Numbered from the stretch's first letter, positions 137 to 19,247 are shown. The stretch is 46,256 bases of DNA from a virus (IMGVR_UViG_2579779052_000002), one strand, 5' to 3'. Notes: generated from the sequence alone by a model not told the origin. Made by a program: numbers and translations.

Positions 137-3100
137 TATGCAAGCCTCACAATATAGTTAAATGCGATGTTTTTGACGGTGTTTTCCGCGTTACCAGCAG
201 CGTTAACGGTGATGGTGTGTCCATGTGAACCAATCGCAACGGAGTGCGCATGAGCACCAATTGGAACAGAGTGCGCATGGTTACCTGTAGTGCTTGTGGC
301 ACCAGACCAGGTTCTGGAAGCGTTAAAGTTTACAGGAACACCATAAGTAAATTGAGAGCCCGTAAATCCATGGGCTGGCGCAGAGCCACCCAGTGTAAAT
401 GCTCCACTTGCTGTATAGAAATTACCGCTATCACTTCTGAAGTAACCGAGAGTACCGGTAATTTCCATAGTGCCTCGGCTGTGGTTATGGTCACCAGTGG
501 CATTTGAAGACTTAGTACCATAATCAAACGACGACGTGGTTTTCGTCCCCAAATCCGTACTGGATGCACTGGCGCTGTGGGTGTGCGATTTAATGCCGTC
601 CTGTTCCTGAGATAATACGGCTCGACCACTGGCAGGGTTGCCCTTAATCGTCCAGCCCCGCATATCAGGGATCACGCCTGACGGATAAGCAGCTGCAAGT
701 TTCGGGTAAGCAGATTTGTCAAAAGTCTGCCCCTGCATCAGGGCATAACCAGACGGAACGGTATCTGATGGCCACGGGATTGGTGCGCCGACTGGGTAGC
801 TTTCTGGTGGAAGATTTTTCGAGGTATAAACTTCTGCCCAGTCTTCCTCAAAACCATAACCGTCTCTTGAAGAACGGTAGAACAGACCACGATTTCTGTA
901 ATGCGCCTTCATCTGCAGGGTCCGGCAACTTCCGACTCCGGTATAGAAGTTAACCAGAATATAGCTGTCGCCAGAGCGGGTGACATTGTAAGCGCCTGAT
1001 TCGGCATTCCAGGGAACGGCTCCATCCGAATCCGCATAAGCCCCCGTCGAACGTCGGGCAAATGCACCAATATTTTCCGGCGTGAGGTTAATATCCGCCG
1101 AGCCATCAAACTTAACACCGTTAATTTTTGGGACTGCCGCAAGTTTCGTCGCGGTATCGGCGTTCCCCTTCAGTGCCCCGGTGATCCCATCAGTAACAGA
1201 CAACGGACCTGAAATAGTCCCTCCAGTCGTTGGCAGCGCTCCAATATCTGATGGTGTAGGTTTCTGATGTGAGCTATACATCGTATAAACAACACCACCG
1301 GTAACGCTGGAAGGCTTACTCGCTGAATATGTTGGCGAGGTATAAATAGAAACTGACGCATTTGTAGTACAATCCCAATGGATATTTACACTCGTCGCAT
1401 AATTGCCAATCTCAACGTAAATATCATATGTATCGCCGGATGTGTTGATCCAGGCGAAATTCGTTAATCCGACGGCTGTACGCTTCCACAAAGCTCCGGT
1501 AATCCCTTTGGGCTTTCCATTGCCTGCTCGTAGAACCAGTTCTGAAATGCCTGCCTGCTGTGGGGAGCCGACGTTGTAACCAGCGCCACCAATCAATGCG
1601 ATGTAAACGATGGAACTCGCTTGTGGCATGGTAACCGTTGCCAGTTTGAACCCCCCTGCCCCGCCAGAGAAAGAGATCGTTACTGAATTTAAAGTGCCAA
1701 TATCTTTCGGTGTTAATGTTATATCCGCAGTCAGTGCTTTCCCGTTAACTTTTCGGTTAGATGGTACCCTGCCATTCGCATTGTCATTCGCTGCTTTAAC
1801 TGCCTTCGGTGTCGCGGCAAGCGTTTCAGATGTGCTGTTGGTTGCACTGCTGAGCTGTACTATCCCCTTTTTCGTCGTACTTGCATCCTCAAGCGCCACG
1901 GCGGATGCAATATCCTCTGCCCGTTTTGCCGCTGTCTCGGCGCGCGTTGCCGCGGATTCCGCCGTACTTTTGCTCTGTGCTGCCGCCGTCGCACTGCCAG
2001 TTGCCTCTGTCGCCTTCGTGGATGCTGTCGTGGCGCTGCCCTTCGCTGCTGACGCCTGTCTGGTCGCCTCATCTTTTGAAGCTGACGCCGATGATGCCGA
2101 TGACGCCGCCGAACTAGCGGACGATGCGGCAGCCGTTTTTGAGGATTCTGCGCTGGTTTCCGACGCTTTCGCGTTCGTCTCGGATGTCTTCGCTGCGGAA
2201 GCAGACCTCGCTGCTGCACTGGCCTGTTCAGTGGCTTCGCCAGCCTTCGTTGTGGCTGTTGAAGCAGACGAGGCGGCACTTTCTGCCGACTTTCCGGCAG
2301 CGGTGGCACTGGCTGAGGCCTGCCCGGCACTTGTTGACGCGGCACTGGCAGATAATGCAGCCGCTGTTTTTGAACCTGCCGCAGCTGAGGCGCTCTGTTC
2401 CGCTGCCGTCTCAGAAGACTTAGCGTTCGTCTCGGACGTTTTTGCCGCCTTCGCAGAATTTGCTGTCGCCGTTGCCGAGGAAGCTGCGCTGCTGGCGCTC
2501 GAGGATGCATTCGTTTCTGAAGATTTCGCTGCCTCTTTTGAGGCCGCCGCACCCCGTGCCGAGGTGGCAGCTTCTGACGCCTTCGTGGTCGCTGTGGATG
2601 CAGAAGTGGCTGCCGATTTTTGTGATGCTGCGGCATTCGTTTCTGACGTTTTCGCGGCACTGGCGCTGGTAGCTGCCGCGCTTTTTGATGACTCTGCAGC
2701 AGCAGCACTTTTTGAGGCTTCAGTGGCCTTTATTGATGCCGTTCCTGCGCTGGAAGACGCTGACTGAGCCGACGACGCGGCCTGTCCGGCTGACGTGCTG
2801 GCTGCACGTGCTGAGCCTGCAGCATCAGTCGCATGGGTTGCCGCCTCACGGGCTGATGTGCTGGCATCGCCGGCTGACTTCTTCGCGGCTGCCGTGTTCT
2901 GTGCCACTGCGGACGCGTTACGCGCCACCTCTTCCACCATCACTTCAAAACGGCGCAGTGCCTCCGGACGGGCATCATCCTCCGTCATGGCACCGAGAAA
3001 ATCATTCAGCGTACCCGGTTGTGAGTCTTCATACACGGTGATGGTCCCGGCGTGTGACGGCGGGAATCCCTCCACCAACAGACTGACGCTGTACTGACCA

Positions 3101-14246: not shown

Positions 14247-14963
14247 TTATCCGGCGGCTGCGCTCACTGTCACGGTGCATTCAACAGACGTCACACTCTG
14301 TGCTTTCTCTGCCGAATCGGTCACCACGCAGGTATATTTCCCCGCATCAGCGGACTGCGCACCTGGCTTACTGAAGGTGTCTGTCGTCTGCCCGTCAACC
14401 GGCTGACCATCCTTCTTCCAGGCGTATTTATACGGCGGCGTTCCCCCGTTGGCACTGACTGACATTGTCAGCAGCGCACCTGTATTCACGGTAAGTGTTT
14501 TATCCAGATTTTTCACAAACGCCAGCGGTACCACAAAGGACACCGGTTTGCCTTTCATACGCAGTGAAAACGTTGCTGCCACCACGCCGTTGGTACCGGA
14601 TGACCAGGTGTGCTGACGCACTTCCGCCAGGAACTTAAAGCCCTTACCGGACGGAAACAGCACCTTAAACGCATACAACGCGTCATTGTCATAGGCATCA
14701 CGCAGGGCGTTCTGGGCCTGATTCAGATAAAAATTACCCGACATGGAAATCTCAGACGACGCCCCCAGACCGTTGATGTTCTCCTGCTCGGTGGAGCAGA
14801 GCGTGGTCACATCAATATCCTGTTTCTGACCGGCGGTGAACTGGACTTCCTTGATGGTGCAATCCAGGCGCAGATATTCCGCCTTATCCATAGTTTCAGC
14901 AGTCGCCGGGGCAGATGAAATCATCACCTGCGTCAGCTGTGAGCGTTCATACAAAGCAGACAT
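14247..14963 (-). CDS. V: major tail protein V with C-terminal Ig-like domain
   Basis: Start chosen at ATG 14963 (MSALYERSQLTQV...) preceded by AGGAGG; C-terminal region resembles Big_2-type Ig domain (ends TVSAAAG). Confidence 0.85.
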   Translation of the reverse strand: MSALYERSQLTQVMISSAPATAETMDKAEYLRLDCTIKEVQFTAGQKQDIDVTTLCSTEQENINGLGASSEISMSGNFYLNQAQNALRDAYDNDALYAFKVLFPSGKGFKFLAEVRQHTWSSGTNGVVAATFSLRMKGKPVSFVVPLAFVKNLDKTLTVNTGALLTMSVSANGGTPPYKYAWKKDGQPVDGQTTDTFSKPGAQSADAGKYTCVVTDSAEKAQSVTSVECTVTVSAAAG

Positions 14964-15027
14964 TCTGCCTCCTGATAATAAAAAACCCGCACGCGGCGGG
15001 GTATGGTTTTGTAGAAAAAAGAAAAAG

Positions 15028-15372
15028 TCACACCGTGACCTGAAACTCCAGGGTTGCACGGTAACAGCGGTTTTCCGGAATATAGTCCTGCATTTCACTG
15101 ACGGATCCCGGGGCCAGCAGCATTATGGCTTCACGGGCGTCCTGACGTATCTGACGCGCCTGCGTCACAGTCCCGGCATAAACGTCTATCTGCACCGACA
15201 CTGAGGACTCCGCCTGCCCGCCCATCACGTCCGCTGACACCGATGAAATCAGGCTGAAAACCACCCACGGAAGCGCCACCGACGGCCTGCCATCCAGCAG
15301 GGGGACCACATACGGGTACCCCTGCCCGCCGGCAAGATGCGCCAGATGAGGATACAAATCCGCCTCCGTCAT
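15028..15372 (-). CDS. tail terminator / minor tail protein (gpU-like position)
   Basis: 114 aa ORF immediately upstream of V, ATGA-coupled to the preceding gene; assignment by synteny. Confidence 0.6.
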   Translation of the reverse strand: MTEADLYPHLAHLAGGQGYPYVVPLLDGRPSVALPWVVFSLISSVSADVMGGQAESSVSVQIDVYAGTVTQARQIRQDAREAIMLLAPGSVSEMQDYIPENRCYRATLEFQVTV

Positions 15373-16171: not shown

Positions 16172-16498
16172 TCATAACACCGTCGGACAACGCAAATCGT
16201 AAATCAGCACGGAAACAGAAAACGGCAGCTCCCCCTGAAGCAGTTCTTCCCGCTCCGCAAGATCCGGATTCCGGTACAGCATCCCGGTCAGTCGCATGGC
16301 AGCCCCCTTCATCCGGGTTAATGCCTCGCCCGGGATCAGTTCACCGTCCTCACGGATCACTTTATCCCGGCTGCCCTGAATGTAGGCCAGCAGCACGGCG
16401 GTAGCCTGACGAACCTTGTCCATCAGCATGTCATCATCCGCGTCATGGTCGACACGCAGATGTGCCTTGATCTCTTCCAGTGTCAGTAATGCCGTCAT
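16172..16498 (-). CDS. head-tail connector (gp6-like)
   Basis: 108 aa, overlaps portal stop by 4 nt; synteny. Confidence 0.6.
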   Translation of the reverse strand: MTALLTLEEIKAHLRVDHDADDDMLMDKVRQATAVLLAYIQGSRDKVIREDGELIPGEALTRMKGAAMRLTGMLYRNPDLAEREELLQGELPFSVSVLIYDLRCPTVL

Positions 16499-19080
16499 TT
16501 TCCGCCTCCTGCATCCCGCCCACGTTTTGCCGCCAGGGTCCAGGCTGATGAATGAGCTTCTCCGGGTTTATCTTCGGTCATACTGTTGCAGTGCCACAGC
16601 GAGCCCCCCCACGTCACCGTATCGCCGGGGTGGTAGGTTTCACCGGCTCTGAACACACCGCGGTAGAGCATCACCGGCAGGGAAAATGTTTTTTCCGTAC
16701 GCTGGCCACTGCTCTGCCGGACCACCACAGAGAACAACCGCTCACCCGTCATGCTGACGTCAATATCCGCCACCCCGTCAACCAGGCATTCCCATCCCCG
16801 CATCCCGTGCGTTTTTTCATACGCCCGCCAGAGTCCGCCCTGGTGTGTGGCATACGTGCCCCGGGGAAAGGATTTTTGATCGTCAATGGCGGGGAGTATT
16901 TCCAGAGCCGTGGCATCACGCCCGTCCTGCGGAGCCGGCAGGGCACTCACCGCATCCAGAACCGCCTTCTGCAGAACATCCGGATCGTAGTCACGACCAT
17001 CACGCGGAACATGAATATGGCTTACCGCCTCCTTCACCATCTGTTCAAGCATCGGACGCACATCATCCGGGGTGAGACTTTTACCGTCTGCCGGCTGCGG
17101 AATATTTGCGACCGCATCATTCACCGCCTTCTGCAGAACATCGGGATCATAGTCACGACCGTCGCGCGGAACAGGGATATGGCTTACAGCCTCCTTCACC
17201 ATCTGTTCAAGCATCGGACGCACATCATCCGGGGTGAGACTTTTACCGTCCGCCGGCTGCGGAATATTTGCGACCGCATCATTCACCGCCTTCTGCAGTA
17301 CTTCCGGATCGTAGTCACGACCATCACGCGGAACAGGGATATGGCTTACAGCCTCCTTCACCATCTGTTCAAGCATCGGACGCACATCATCCGGGGTGAG
17401 ACTTTTACCGTCCGCCGGCTGCGGAATATTTGCGACCGCATCATTCACCGCCTGCTGCAGTACATCCGGATCATAATCACGACCATCACGCGGTACCGGA
17501 ATGGCCCCCACAGCGTCATCCACCATCGCCTGCAGAACCGGACGCACCTCATCCACCGTCACATGCTTCTGTAATACCGCCGACAGGGAAGTCAGTTTCT
17601 CTTCAAACGCTTGTGCCTGCGAGGCCATCTTCCCCTCAAATGTGCGCTGTAAATCCGCCAGCACTGTGGAGAATTCTTCTCCCAGTGCACGAATAATGGA
17701 CAGTTCCCGTTCCGTCATTTTCTCAGTATCCCCCCTGAACATCGCTTTCACCGCATCATGCTCTGTTTCACTGATTGCCTTATTACCGTCAGATGCGCCG
17801 TCAGGCAGCTGTGATGAAACTGTTTTCCCGGCAGACGCGAACGGATCCTCACGGGCATCACGACGGGACAGCGCCTCCAGACTGTAGTTCTGCTGCTGAA
17901 GATACAGTGCATCACCGCCGGCCAGGGGCGGCAGGTTCTCCCGTTTACGGGCCTCATTGGGCGTGAGAAGCGTATTTTTCACCGCATCCCCCAGCGTTTT
18001 CATGCGCCGCTCACTGTCCATTCTCAGCAGCGTGGTGACATCAAATTCTGTACTCTCGTTTTCCCCCGTTTCCAGCGCCTCATCCAGTAACAGTTCAATG
18101 GACTCAATCAGCGTCTGCAGGCACTGGGAATAATACTGCTGCTCCAGCGCCTCCACGTTGTCACTGGAAGGCGGTTGTCCCACGCCAATCTTGTAGGCCG
18201 GGACACGGAACACCGAACAGACAATTTCAGCGGTCATCTTCAGTTGTTCCACCGTCTGCGCATCCACAGGTGAAAACGTCGTGGGGTTGTATTTTGCCCC
18301 GTTGCTCAGAATGGCCGTTTTCCCCGCATTTTCGCCTGTATACCCGCTGTCCCAGTTGCTCTTCAGTTTTTTCGCATTTTCTTCCGTAATACTGCCGGGG
18401 ATCTCAATCACCCCGGACGGCCTGCCGCCATTTCTGAAAAAAGACGTCGAATTTTCCTGAATATGATGCCCCTGCGTGGCCGCCAGCCCGGCGGCATACA
18501 CCGGCGGCAATCCTATAAGCGGATGAAAAAAACAGTTAAACCGGTCGTGGATCACTTCCCGGGCAGGCACCGTCACCGCCTCCGTGATCCCGCAGTTCCG
18601 GTCCGGCGTGATGCGGTAGAACACCTCGCCGTCATCCGCCACCAGAGGTTCAACCCGGCTCCAGTCCAGAATACGCAGTTCTTTGATCTGCCCCCGGGCA
18701 TTACGGATTTTCAGCACCACCGTATTGCCATGACGCAGTTTGGCGTTCAGCCACAGTTCAAAAAACTGGATGCGGTTCTGCTGGGCGTTGGGACGACGAC
18801 AGAGGCGGGCAATATCCCCCCGGCGCGTTTCCCTGCGTATCCCATGCGCATCCGTCTGCATAAGACGCAGCCGCATTTTGGCGATATCCTGGGATATCAG
18901 CGAAATACATGCAAACACCGCATGAAAGGAGAGGACGGCTTCAGGATCGGCTTTCACGCCCTGCTGCCAGGCGCCGGAAAAGGGCTCAGCCACCGCCTGA
19001 AACAGGCTGGTCCAGCCCGCCTCTCTTACGTCACGTCCTGATTTCTGGTTTTTTCGGGTTCGCCGTAAAAGGTTCCACAT
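16495..19080 (-). CDS. portal protein (HK97 family) with ~440-aa C-terminal extension containing tandem 54-aa repeats
   Basis: N-terminal ~420 aa contains portal-like motifs (RPSGVIEIPG, GENAGKTAILSNGAKYNP, EIVCSVFRVPAYKIG); C-terminal region has 4 copies of IPVPRDGRDYDPDVLQKAVNDAVANIPQPADGKSLTPDDVRPMLEQMVKEAVSH. Confidence 0.8.
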   Translation of the reverse strand: MWNLLRRTRKNQKSGRDVREAGWTSLFQAVAEPFSGAWQQGVKADPEAVLSFHAVFACISLISQDIAKMRLRLMQTDAHGIRRETRRGDIARLCRRPNAQQNRIQFFELWLNAKLRHGNTVVLKIRNARGQIKELRILDWSRVEPLVADDGEVFYRITPDRNCGITEAVTVPAREVIHDRFNCFFHPLIGLPPVYAAGLAATQGHHIQENSTSFFRNGGRPSGVIEIPGSITEENAKKLKSNWDSGYTGENAGKTAILSNGAKYNPTTFSPVDAQTVEQLKMTAEIVCSVFRVPAYKIGVGQPPSSDNVEALEQQYYSQCLQTLIESIELLLDEALETGENESTEFDVTTLLRMDSERRMKTLGDAVKNTLLTPNEARKRENLPPLAGGDALYLQQQNYSLEALSRRDAREDPFASAGKTVSSQLPDGASDGNKAISETEHDAVKAMFRGDTEKMTERELSIIRALGEEFSTVLADLQRTFEGKMASQAQAFEEKLTSLSAVLQKHVTVDEVRPVLQAMVDDAVGAIPVPRDGRDYDPDVLQQAVNDAVANIPQPADGKSLTPDDVRPMLEQMVKEAVSHIPVPRDGRDYDPEVLQKAVNDAVANIPQPADGKSLTPDDVRPMLEQMVKEAVSHIPVPRDGRDYDPDVLQKAVNDAVANIPQPADGKSLTPDDVRPMLEQMVKEAVSHIHVPRDGRDYDPDVLQKAVLDAVSALPAPQDGRDATALEILPAIDDQKSFPRGTYATHQGGLWRAYEKTHGMRGWECLVDGVADIDVSMTGERLFSVVVRQSSGQRTEKTFSLPVMLYRGVFRAGETYHPGDTVTWGGSLWHCNSMTEDKPGEAHSSAWTLAAKRGRDAGGGK
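16939..17586. repeat. 162-bp tandem direct repeat, ~4 copies, in-frame within portal gene
   Basis: Anchor AATATTTGCGACCGCATCATTCACCGCC recurs at 17101, 17263 and 17425 (period 162); flanking copies are degenerate. Confidence 0.9.
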
Positions 19081-19247
19081 TCGCCATGCTCCGCATCACG
19101 TTTCTTTTTCTGACCTGCCGGACGTCGCACCGTGATGTACTCCGCCTTTCCCAGGCGAACCAGCACCTCCGCACACGGCTGTGCCACATCACGGATATCC
19201 CCGGCCCGGGCATCATGCGTGCCCTGCAGATATCGGATCTTTGCCAT
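19026..19247 (-). CDS. hypothetical small protein (73 aa) between capsid and portal genes
   Basis: ATG-initiated ORF, weak RBS, overlaps portal start by ~55 nt; may not be expressed. Confidence 0.3.
   Translation of the reverse strand: MAKIRYLQGTHDARAGDIRDVAQPCAEVLVRLGKAEYITVRRPAGQKKKRDAEHGECGTFYGEPEKTRNQDVT

What the first reader, a model, noticed from the sequence alone, without database searches (positions are those of the whole stretch)
16495..19080. Portal gene with a long C-terminal extension built from 162-bp in-frame tandem repeats
The portal-like N-terminal ~420 aa is followed by ~440 aa that include four 54-aa tandem repeats (DNA period 162 bp, copies at 17101, 17263, 17425 plus degenerate flanks) and a distinct C-terminal domain (…WGGSLWHCNSMTEDKPGEAHSSAWTLAAKRGRDAGGGK). 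Near-identical repeats are prone to expansion and contraction, so copy number may vary between strains. The extension could be a fused scaffold, decoration or ejection-protein domain.
Basis: seen in the sequence. Interest (0 to 1): 0.6.

Follow-up and report, generated by a model that had tools for sequence, protein, structure and literature searches.

The report
Portal fused to neighbouring fibre-like gene
The 861-residue "portal with a repeat-rich tail" is real, but it is an ordinary HK97-type phage portal joined by one extra G to the next gene, a widespread uncharacterised fibre-like head-module protein that is a separate gene in about 40% of E. coli copies and in every other genus examined.

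Summary
Window 16495-19080 (-) is one 861-aa ORF, and a 162-bp in-frame tandem repeat (3.3 copies, 95% matches) lies inside it. Repeat copy number does vary among relatives, in steps of 162 bp.

The interpretation needs changing. The "C-terminal extension" is the complete product of the next gene (here called ORF2, 407 aa, the phrog_1289 family). All 32 non-E. coli loci in which both genes could be read encode the portal (~450 aa) and ORF2 as two genes whose stop and start overlap. These loci come from Enterobacterales, Pseudomonas, Rhizobiales and Sphingomonadales.

In E. coli a G-run six codons before the portal's native stop is either G5 (split, the ancestral frame) or G6 (fused, as in this window). 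Complete genomes hold 918 G5 and 1369 G6 junctions. Seven other homopolymer runs in the same gene almost never vary in length, so the junction indel is real and is tolerated only at this site.

ORF2 has a long N-terminal helix, then eight ~27-aa "PxPxDG loop plus helix" units, then a β-domain built of chitin-binding-type (CBM5/12-like) modules of the kind found on phage fibres.

ORF2's function is untested. I infer it is a low-copy accessory protein of the portal vertex that still works when tethered to the portal. Interest is moderate.

The parts
16495..19080 (-). Fused ORF, 861 aa (95 kDa): portal plus ORF2
   Evidence: phrog_2271 (859 positions) matches it end to end.
17935..18921 (-). HK97-family portal domain (aa 54-382)
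   Evidence: Pfam PF04860 at 272.6 bits. TIGR01537 at 349.4 bits.
17719..17883 (-). Acidic portal C-terminal tail (aa 400-454). It follows the conserved crown helix '...YLQQQNYSLEAL' and ends in the fusion linker 'GDTEK'.
   Evidence: pI 4.9.
17730..17735 (-). G6 homopolymer (C6 on the + strand) at gene nt 1346-1351. One G more than the ancestral G5. This extra base fuses the two genes.
   Evidence: Polymorphism is 36 G5: 36 G6 in fetched loci, and 918 against 1369 places in complete E. coli genomes.
17715..17718 (-). ATGA: the start codon of ORF2 (M455 of the fusion) overlapping the portal's native TGA stop, which is read only in the G5 frame
   Evidence: The same ATGA junction occurs in other Enterobacterales.
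16495..17718 (-). ORF2-equivalent, 407 aa, pI 4.9: the phrog_1289 family, which is normally a separate gene
17566..17712 (-). Long N-terminal α-helix of ORF2 (ORF2 aa 3-51)
   Evidence: AlphaFold2 model (pLDDT 63-76 in this stretch).
16941..17565 (-). Spacer array: eight ~25-29-aa units, each a 12-residue 'ΦPxPxDGxD' loop plus a 13- or 17-residue helix. It is strongly acidic (net -18).
17017..17502 (-). Three near-identical 162-bp (54-aa) higher-order copies within the array (TRF call: 16961-17493)
   Evidence: Copy number varies among relatives.
16498..16935 (-). C-terminal all-β domain (aa 716-861) built of CBM5/12-like (chitin-binding-type) modules
16604..16610 (-). G7 run encoding the conserved T-W-G-G motif. 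Used as an internal control: its length never varies.
   Evidence: 40/40 loci carry G7.
16172..16498 (-). Head-tail adaptor (Ad1/gp6-like), 108 aa. Its ATG overlaps the ORF2 stop as a second ATGA.
19292..21229 (-). Prohead protease-major capsid protein fusion, 645 aa (context: the gene upstream of the portal)

Best explanation
Shown.

- The 861-aa ORF is a secondary fusion of two adjacent head-module genes.
- Gene 1 is an HK97-family portal of about 454 aa.
- Gene 2 (ORF2, 407 aa) belongs to a very large, uncharacterised, acidic protein family. In relatives it is encoded between the portal and the gp6-like head-tail adaptor, with stop/start overlaps on both sides.
- ORF2 is modular. It has a ~50-residue N-terminal helix, a variable-length spacer of ~27-aa 'PxPxDG loop plus helix' units, and a conserved ~145-aa β-domain made of CBM5/12-like modules, a type also found on phage fibres and tailspikes. 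In this window the spacer has been homogenised into 162-bp higher-order repeats that expand and contract.
- In E. coli a G5 tract lies six codons before the portal stop. Gain of one G (G6, as in this window) replaces the last four portal residues (ILRK becomes DTEK) and reads in frame into the ORF2 start codon.
- Both alleles are common, and each state occurs on several local haplotypes.

Inferred.

- Length changes at every other homopolymer in the gene are essentially absent, and ORF2 stays intact and constrained in both states. The fused form is therefore functional, not decaying.
- This implies that ORF2 can work while tethered to the portal C-terminus. In all solved portals that end is the crown, which faces the capsid interior.
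- I therefore favour, at about 50%, ORF2 being a low-copy accessory protein of the portal vertex that docks at or near the portal crown. This would be a positional analogue of SPP1 gp7 / Mu F or of the P22 portal barrel. The tether would merely make a normally non-covalent 1:1 association covalent.
- An external neck or head fibre is the main alternative, at about 30%.
For: - One-base difference: G6 against G5 is the only indel between the window gene and phage 1717. In phage 1717 the two genes are annotated separately (1365 nt and 1224 nt, overlapping by 4 nt).
- Ancestral frame: the G5 reading ...KAMFRGILRK* matches ...KAM[LI]RG[LF]LTK* followed by ATGA in Phytobacter, Kosakonia, Kluyvera, Atlantibacter, Enterobacter and Pantoea.
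- Synteny: the order TerL, protease/MCP, portal (~450 aa), ORF2 (167-556 aa, separate), adaptor holds in all 32 non-E. coli loci where the junction could be read.
- Family size: 5609 representative clusters at E<=1e-3. Nearly all of the best 150 are standalone proteins of 240-700 aa. Among 276 retrieved family members, only the three members of the P0209 cluster and one E. coli fragment carry a portal segment, and none carries adaptor or capsid sequence.
- Allele counts: 1369 G6 and 918 G5 places in 5426 complete E. coli genomes. In IMG/VR the counts are 33 G6 and 35 G5.
- Internal controls: G6@260 is invariant in 39/39 loci, G7@2471 in 40/40, T7 in 66/66, and four G5 runs in 39/39, 58/59, 45/45 and 34/35. 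The junction run is 36:36.
- Recurrence: at least 7 state changes on an NJ tree. G6 occurs on at least 4 distinct local haplotypes, and G5 occurs on the same haplotypes as G6.
- Constraint: dN/dS is 0.15-0.28 in both states. Aberrant ORF2 lengths number 4/27 in G6 and 5/29 in G5 loci.
- Structure.
- Independent fusion: P0209 (1237 aa) joins a portal to an ORF2 homologue through an unrelated junction.
- Infectious phages: the split form occurs in the isolated Salmonella phage FSL SP-016 and in phage BP-4795. The fused form occurs in phage 2851 and in WGPS6, the closest relative of the plaque-forming phage phi330 (PMC12502783).
Against: - No experiment bears on ORF2. No virion proteomics, structure or mutant was found.
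- A fibre-like build with a distal carbohydrate-binding-type domain, collagen-like tails in some homologues and an acidic pI is what one expects of an external fibre. It is not expected of a protein enclosed in the head.
- The argument that constraint persists in the G6 state is weak, because the states interconvert and the large G6 clade is young.
- Clonal over-representation (ST131, O157) inflates the raw allele counts.
- Internal initiation at M455, or proteolytic release, could supply free ORF2 from the fused allele. Tolerance of the fusion would then say nothing about where ORF2 sits.
- I could not confirm from a held paper that G6 phages are infectious. The Strauch 2008 paper on phage 2851 is not held, and the G-run state of phi330 is unknown to me.
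Confidence: 0.75

Rival explanations
1. External neck or head fibre. ORF2 is normally a free, oligomeric fibre anchored by its N-terminal helix at the portal vertex or on the capsid. It projects a sugar-binding domain that helps adsorption. In the G6 allele the fibre is trapped inside the head or made only by inefficient internal initiation, so the fusion is a hypomorphic or 'off' state that is tolerated because the fibre is accessory.
For: - The C-domain resembles the chitin-binding domains of chitinases and modules of tail fibres and tailspikes.
- It also resembles collagen-like phage fibre proteins.
- It matches tail-fibre PHROGs 5073, 26419 and 11660.
- Some homologues carry collagen-repeat hits.
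- The spacer length is very variable.
- The family is acidic, with median pI 4.9.
- Twelve copies of 44.5 kDa inside the head would take up little of its volume (my estimate).
Against: - Broken ORF2 is no more frequent in G6 than in G5 loci, and dN/dS is no higher.
- The only fusions seen are to the portal C-terminus. None is to the adaptor or the capsid protein.
- The Shine-Dalgarno context before M455 is weak (my reading), so a G6 allele should yield little free ORF2.
Confidence: 0.3
2. Contingency switch. The G-tract is a selected, heritable toggle, as in bacterial phase-variable loci. Slippage between G5 and G6 switches the phage population between free and portal-tethered ORF2 and so changes virion properties.
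For: - The split between states is near 50:50, and each state occurs on several haplotypes.
- All other runs, including a longer G7, are fixed in length.
- Both states keep intact ORFs.
Against: - The tract is not conserved in other genera. Most use AGA GGA at these codons.
- G5/G6 tracts mutate slowly compared with classic contingency tracts of eight or more bases (general knowledge).
- The pattern is equally explained by neutrality of the indel at this one permissive site.
- No phenotype is known.
Confidence: 0.15
3. Decay. The G6 allele is a disabling frameshift in a defective prophage, and the long ORF is an accident with no function.
For: - The window is a prophage.
- E. coli carries many defective lambdoid prophages (general knowledge).
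- Some relatives do have broken ORF2 or portal genes.
- Multi-prophage strains could complement a defective allele in trans.
Against: - Indels at other homopolymers in the same gene are almost absent. That would not be so under neutral decay.
- There are 1369 G6 places in 782 complete genomes, with a median of one per genome.
- The fused ORF stays open for 2586 nt.
- Phage 2851 and WGPS6 carry G6-length genes.
Confidence: 0.1
4. Programmed frameshifting. Either allele makes both a short portal and a portal-ORF2 fusion by ribosomal or transcriptional slippage on the G-run, as with T7 gene 10A/10B or lambda gpG/gpGT.
For: - In the G5 allele the P-site GGG can re-pair in the -1 frame, and it is followed by the rare ATA codon (reading).
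- A stable hairpin lies downstream, with z = -3.7.
Against: - The run is absent from most relatives.
- The hairpin starts about 35 nt after the run, not the usual 5-9 nt.
- Neither allele has a canonical X XXY YYZ heptamer.
- Nothing requires both products.
Confidence: 0.06
5. This is a single ancestral portal gene that evolved a long repeat-containing C-terminal extension.
For: - It is one ORF in this window.
- PHROG 2271 models the full length.
- RefSeq annotates it as one 'phage portal protein'.
Against. The extension begins at the start codon of a gene that is separate in every other genus sampled, and the split frame is the conserved one.
Confidence: 0.03

Closest known systems
HK97-family portal proteins (Pfam PF04860, TIGR01537)
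   Same: Residues 1-~450 are a full-length member. They include the conserved crown helix and sit in the usual head-gene context.
   Different: Here the portal is covalently continued by a second, unrelated protein of 407 aa. Family members are typically 400-480 aa.
SPP1 gp7 / Mu gpF (MuF) minor head proteins
   Same: From my own knowledge: they are encoded directly downstream of the portal gene, are low-copy and portal-associated inside the head, and are sometimes found fused to portals or carrying variable C-terminal domains. Only the gene position was checked here.
   Different: There is no sequence relationship. No Phage_Mu_F hit appeared in the Pfam scans. ORF2 has a repeat spacer and a CBM5/12-like end domain, which MuF proteins lack.
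P22 gp1 portal barrel
   Same: A portal polypeptide that continues beyond the crown as a long helical structure inside the capsid (my own knowledge). The fused allele places a ~50-residue helix just after the portal tail.
   Different: The P22 barrel is an integral, non-repetitive part of the portal gene. Here the continuation is a separate gene product joined by an indel, and it ends in a β-domain.
CBM5/12 chitin-binding domains (chitinase ChBDs) and the related modules on phage tail fibres and tailspikes
   Different: The window protein scores below the Pfam cut-off (19.1 against 26.2 bits). The domain is a composite with an extra β-sheet. It sits in the head module, not in a tail-fibre or enzyme context. 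Ligand binding is untested.
Fibrous head or neck accessory proteins (SPP1 gp12 collagen-like decoration protein, T4 fibritin, phi29 gp8.5 head fibre)
   Same: An elongated modular build encoded in the head module. The comparison with these three proteins rests on my own knowledge.
   Different: No homology was detected. ORF2 uses helix-loop repeats, not a collagen or coiled-coil shaft. Its location on the virion is unknown.
Homopolymer-tract phase variation (bacterial contingency loci) and frameshift-extended phage structural proteins (T7 10A/10B, lambda G/GT)
   Same: A one-base change of frame at a short run decides whether a structural protein carries a large C-terminal extension. Both states are common.
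   Different: Here the two states are fixed DNA alleles. There is no demonstrated translational slippage. The tract is short and is not conserved outside E. coli.

Membership tests
HK97-family phage portal (PF04860 / TIGR01537) | Sequence match above the curated cut-offs | tested here: met
   PF04860 scores 272.6 bits against 39.1. TIGR01537 scores 349.4 bits against 112.05.
HK97-family phage portal (PF04860 / TIGR01537) | Located in a head-morphogenesis module with terminase, protease/capsid and adaptor genes | tested here: met
   TerL, protease-MCP, portal, adaptor and head-closure genes lie in order.
HK97-family phage portal (PF04860 / TIGR01537) | Forms a dodecameric ring at one capsid vertex | not testable with these tools
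   Needs virion structure or biochemistry.
ORF2 family (phrog_1289; no curated name) | N-terminal helix, then PxPxDG/helix repeat spacer, then the conserved C-terminal β-domain (...YPRGTYA.H.GGLWR...GDTVTWGGSLWHC...KRGRD) | tested here: met
   phrog_1289 at E 4.8e-195. Alignments A1-A3 have 12-38 invariant columns. Models.
ORF2 family (phrog_1289; no curated name) | Encoded as a separate gene between portal and gp6-like adaptor, with overlapping stop and start codons | tested here: not met
   It is fused to the portal in this window through the G6 allele. The position, the downstream ATGA and the in-frame start codon are retained. The feature is met in G5 alleles and in all 32 non-E. coli loci with a readable junction.
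CBM5/12 carbohydrate-binding module (PF02839) | Pfam gathering score | tested here: not met
   19.1 bits against 26.2 for the window protein. Four of the ten representative homologues scanned reach 21.9-24.8 bits. Precomputed PF02839 hits exist for many others.
CBM5/12 carbohydrate-binding module (PF02839) | Small β-hairpin fold of the chitin-binding domains | tested here: met
CBM5/12 carbohydrate-binding module (PF02839) | Binds chitin or another glycan | not testable with these tools
   Needs binding assays with the recombinant domain.
MuF / SPP1 gp7 minor head proteins (PF04233) | Sequence match to the Phage_Mu_F domain | tested here: not met
   No hit in the Pfam scans of the window protein or of ten homologues.
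Programmed ribosomal frameshift site | Slippery sequence conserved among relatives | tested here: not met
   Most related genera have AGA GGA or other codons at this position, with no run.
Programmed ribosomal frameshift site | Stimulatory RNA structure 5-9 nt downstream of the slip site | tested here: not met
   The only strong hairpin (z = -3.7) begins about 35 nt downstream.
Phase-variable (contingency) homopolymer locus | Recurrent tract-length change with both states keeping usable reading frames | tested here: met
Phase-variable (contingency) homopolymer locus | Raised switching rate and a selectable phenotype difference | not testable with these tools
   Needs deep sequencing of phage populations and isogenic mutants.

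The most novel reading that the evidence does not exclude
The junction G-tract is a heritable switch that toggles a temperate phage between two virion forms. In one the carbohydrate-binding fibre-like protein ORF2 is free. In the other all twelve portal subunits carry it covalently on the interior side. This would be phase-variable virion architecture, and ORF2 would define a new, very widespread class of portal-vertex accessory protein.
Probability: 0.15. Interest if true: 0.7.

Novelty: new variant of a known kind. Interest (0 to 1): 0.45.

Why it matters
- Annotation. Thousands of database entries call the ORF2 family "portal protein", "gp6-like head-tail connector" or "carbohydrate binding domain protein". 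Several Stx-phage records flag the ancestral split form as a pseudogene. The comparative data reverse that polarity: the split form is the norm and the 861-aa "portal" is the derived form.

- Biology. A family with thousands of representative clusters sits in a fixed slot of a common head module in Proteobacteria and has no known function. Natural fusions to the portal C-terminus give a testable clue to where it sits in the virion.

- Practice. The 162-bp repeats break short-read assemblies, because many "partial" proteins end inside them. Copy number and G-run state are usable markers for typing Pankowvirus-like and Stx prophages.

- Limits. If the fusion proves neutral, this is an ordinary gene fusion/fission polymorphism in a mosaic prophage.

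Tried and rejected
- Sequencing or assembly artefact for G5/G6: rejected. Seven other homopolymers in the same gene, including a G7 and another G6, are length-invariant across the same loci. The window allele is identical in many closed genomes.
- Repeat as an assembly collapse: rejected for the window. Closed genomes show the same and other copy numbers. Draft assemblies do break there.
- Programmed frameshift: no conserved slippery site, and the hairpin is too far downstream.
- MuF/gp7 homology, scaffold or decoration families: no Pfam or NCBIfam hits beyond the portal. The PDB sequence search gave only weak matches to designed helical repeats.
- ORF2-adaptor fusions, suggested by PGAP's name 'gp6-like head-tail connector, partial': rejected. 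The example checked is a contig-end fragment with a separate adaptor gene. No family member contains adaptor sequence.
- Literature: seven full-text searches found no study of this protein. The Strauch 2008 paper on phage 2851 is not held. The phi330 paper reports virion mass spectrometry but shows no portal data.
The first dN/dS run on the C-domain was out of register and was redone. The full-ORF2 AlphaFold model has low confidence in the repeat region, so its tertiary arrangement was not interpreted.
Full report
**1. The observation**

The ORF listing finds one ORF at 16495..19080 on the minus strand, 861 aa. Tandem Repeats Finder reports a 162-bp unit with 3.3 copies, 95% matches and no indels at 16961-17493.

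At the protein level there are three full 54-aa copies: aa 527-580, 581-634 and 635-688. They are 151-155/162 nt identical pairwise. Each is made of a 25-aa and a 29-aa sub-unit. With the degenerate flanks, the motif 'ΦPxPxDG' occurs eight times.

The N-terminal part is an HK97-family portal. PF04860 covers aa 54-382 at 272.6 bits, and TIGR01537 scores 349.4 bits.

**2. Where the window comes from**

The gene is 100% identical to many complete E. coli chromosomes and 99.6-99.7% identical to phage 2851 and Stx2a_WGPS6 (genus Pankowvirus). Of 5426 complete E. coli genomes, 1246 carry a copy.

The surrounding genes, in order, are terminase small and large subunits, a prohead protease-major capsid fusion, a small ORF, the portal, a gp6-like adaptor, a head-closure protein, an HK97 gp10-like protein, a tail terminator, the major tail protein, tail chaperones and the tape measure.

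**3. The 'extension' is the next gene**

Many Stx phages have a 2585-nt version of the gene that is annotated as two CDSs. In phage 1717 these are 1365 nt and 1224 nt and overlap by 4 nt.

An alignment with the window shows a single indel. The run G6 at gene nt 1346-1351 (window 17730-17735) is G5 in phage 1717.

With G5 the portal reads ...KAMFRGILRK and stops at a TGA that overlaps the ATG of the second gene (ATGA). That ATG is codon M455 of the window ORF. With G6 the frame runs ...KAMFRGDTEK-MTERELS..., straight into that gene.

I call the second gene ORF2 (window 16495-17718, 407 aa).

**4. Which state is ancestral**

A motif-based scan of one genome per species returned 42 loci. In all 32 non-E. 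coli loci where the junction could be read, the order is TerL, protease/MCP, portal of about 450 aa, a separate ORF2 of 167-556 aa, then the adaptor. These loci come from Phytobacter, Kosakonia, Kluyvera, Atlantibacter, Enterobacter, Pantoea, Rouxiella, Morganella, Proteus, Pseudomonas, Rhizobiales and Sphingomonadales.

In Enterobacterales the portal ends ...KAM[LI]RG[LF]LTK* and ORF2 starts MNERELSLIK..., joined by ATGA. The E. coli G5 frame reproduces this ending and the G6 frame does not. Split is therefore ancestral and the fusion is derived.

An exhaustive HMMER search with ORF2 found 5609 representative clusters at E<=1e-3, of which 630 are at E<=1e-30. Almost all of the best 150 are standalone proteins of 240-700 aa.

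Only one non-E. coli cluster is portal-fused: P0209, 1237 aa, seen on contigs of up to 119 kb. Its junction is unrelated to the E. coli one. Among 276 retrieved family members, none contains adaptor or capsid sequence.

PHROGs already holds the standalone family as phrog_1289. It is labelled 'portal protein', presumably by carry-over from the fused entries.

**5. The G-tract polymorphism is real, common and specific to this site**

Short queries that can only match one state found 1369 G6 places in 782 complete E. coli genomes and 918 G5 places in 492.

*Controls.* In the same set of loci, other homopolymers of the same gene are fixed in length. G6 at nt 260 is invariant in 39/39 loci, G7 at nt 2471 in 40/40, T7 in 66/66, and four G5 runs in 39/39, 58/59, 45/45 and 34/35. 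The junction run is 36:36.

This excludes sequencing error. It also shows that frameshifts elsewhere in the gene are purged, so the gene is under selection and the junction indel alone is tolerated.

*Recurrence.* An NJ tree needs at least seven state changes. G6 sits on at least four distinct 240-nt local haplotypes, and G5 occurs on haplotypes otherwise seen only with G6. This points to recurrent slippage or very short conversion tracts.

*Constraint.* ORF2 stays open in both states. Aberrant lengths number 4/27 for G6 and 5/29 for G5. dN/dS is 0.15-0.28 in both states. The constraint argument has limited power, because the states interconvert and the main G6 clade is young.

**6. Repeat copy number**

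From M455 to the stop, related loci measure 735, 897, 1059, 1221 (or 1215), 1383 and 1707 nt, i.e. steps of 162, in both G5 and G6 backgrounds. BP-4795 has one copy more than the window, and vB_EcoS-705R7 one fewer.

A Serratia homologue (P0121) has its own, different, near-identical 54-aa copies. Homogenisation and expansion therefore happen independently in different lineages.

Many draft-genome proteins are 'partial' and end inside the array, which shows that short-read assemblies break there.

**7. What ORF2 looks like**

AlphaFold2 on the last 172 residues, with 45 aligned sequences, gives pLDDT 86 and an all-β domain.

Pfam CBM_5_12 is sub-threshold in the window protein at 19.1 bits against a cut-off of 26.2. 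It is on record for many homologues. Some homologues also end in short collagen-like tails.

The whole-ORF2 model shows a helix over residues 3-51. It is followed by alternating 13- and 17-residue helices separated by 12-residue PxPxDG loops. Confidence in how these pack is low, while the C-domain is confident.

ORF2 is acidic: pI 4.9, with the array at net -18. The family median pI is also 4.9.

No solved structure matches by sequence.

**8. How it most likely works**

*Shown.* The ORF is a fusion created by a +1 G. ORF2 is a modular protein with a helix, a variable spacer and a CBM-like head. It occupies a fixed slot with stop/start overlaps on both sides: ATGA with the portal in the G5 frame, and ATGA with the adaptor. 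Both states are common.

*Inferred.* Overlapping stop/start codons with two 12-copy ring proteins suggest low, roughly equimolar expression. That points to a vertex-specific protein, not a capsid-wide decoration protein.

The fusion persists, recurs and shows no excess decay, so ORF2 probably still functions when tethered to the portal C-terminus. In all solved portals (SPP1, P22, T4, phi29 and HK97-like; my own knowledge) that end is the crown inside the capsid.

I therefore favour, at about 50%, a portal-crown-associated minor head protein. It would be positionally analogous to SPP1 gp7 / Mu F or to the P22 barrel.

The fibre-like build argues instead for an external neck or head fibre, at about 30%. 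In that case G6 would be an off or hypomorphic state, harmless because twelve 44.5-kDa copies occupy little of the head.

Proteolytic release by the prohead protease, or internal initiation at M455, could reconcile the two readings. Neither could be tested here.

**9. Rivals considered**

- Programmed frameshifting is unlikely. The run is absent from most genera, and the only strong hairpin (z = -3.7) starts about 35 nt downstream.
- Neutral decay is unlikely, given the invariant control runs.
- A selected phase-variable switch is possible but not required by the data.

**10. Literature**

No paper on this protein was found.

PMC12502783 describes phi330. It is a plaque-forming, OmpC-dependent siphophage whose closest relative is WGPS6, and WGPS6 carries a G6-length gene 99.6% identical to the window. 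CsCl-purified virions were analysed by mass spectrometry (PRIDE PXD061229), but no portal data are shown. That dataset could settle virion content.

FSL SP-016 was isolated as a phage (PMC3728262) and has the split form, as does BP-4795. From my own knowledge, phage 2851 (fused form) and BP-4795 were both described as transducing phages. The paper on phage 2851 is not held.

**11. Verdict**

The feature is a derived portal-ORF2 gene fusion caused by a one-base homopolymer gain. It carries a copy-number-variable repeat spacer and a CBM5/12-like end domain.

It is a new variant of known kinds of thing: gene fusion/fission, portal-neighbour fusions, and homopolymer polymorphism. It is attached to a large protein family of unknown function. 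Interest is moderate.

Noticed in passing
window 19292-21229 (-); loci L151, L153, L160, L163-L165: The neighbouring gene is itself a fusion of a prohead protease and the major capsid protein (645 aa). In several alphaproteobacterial relatives the same two parts are separate ORFs (~205 aa and ~460-485 aa). Fusion/fission polymorphism therefore affects two adjacent head genes of this module.
   Followed up: partly
window 19026-19247 (-): A small ORF between the capsid and portal genes is conserved across Enterobacterales at 48-60% identity. It is 55-56 aa in relatives and ends at the portal start. Here it is 73 aa and overlaps the portal start by 55 nt. Function unknown.
   Followed up: partly
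window 17640-17700 (-), about 20 nt downstream of the ORF2 start codon: A stable RNA hairpin (CACUGGGAGAAGAAUUCUCCACAGUG and flanks) lies here. The 106-nt fragment folds at -35.6 kcal/mol with z = -3.7 against shuffles. It is too far from the G-run to act as a frameshift stimulator. A role in ORF2 translation was not examined.
   Followed up: partly
window 16495-16510 and 17708-17728 (-): Both gene junctions (portal/ORF2 and ORF2/adaptor) share the same 11-nt string GAAAATGACGG around their ATGA overlap. This may be coincidence or a shared reinitiation context.
   Followed up: no
database entries for homologues: Names for the same family conflict: 'phage portal protein', 'phage gp6-like head-tail connector protein' (full-length standalone Hafnia proteins), 'carbohydrate binding domain protein' and 'hypothetical protein'. 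Several Stx-phage records mark the ancestral split form as 'portal protein (pseudogene)'.
   Followed up: partly
homologues P0030-P0120; L168: A very large number of draft-assembly proteins are 'partial' and end inside the 162-bp repeat array. Contigs break there, so copy number cannot be trusted in short-read assemblies.
   Followed up: partly
window 14247-15098 (-): The major tail protein carries a C-terminal immunoglobulin-like domain. It is annotated 'immunoglobulin domain-containing protein' in phage 2851 and, oddly, 'fibritin (wac)' in vB_EcoS-705R7. The 283-aa GTG-start ORF listed here is probably over-extended compared with the 239-aa annotated CDS.
   Followed up: no
window 222-279 and 23018-23071: There are two separate 27-bp tandem duplications, each about 2 copies at 83-85% matches. 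One is near the window start and one is close to the terminase small-subunit gene. Not examined.
   Followed up: no
locus L001 1442-2752 (phage 1717): IS629 is inserted between the terminase small subunit and the capsid gene in Stx2 phage 1717, and no terminase large-subunit CDS is listed in that stretch. That phage's head module may therefore be defective even though it keeps the ancestral split portal/ORF2.
   Followed up: no
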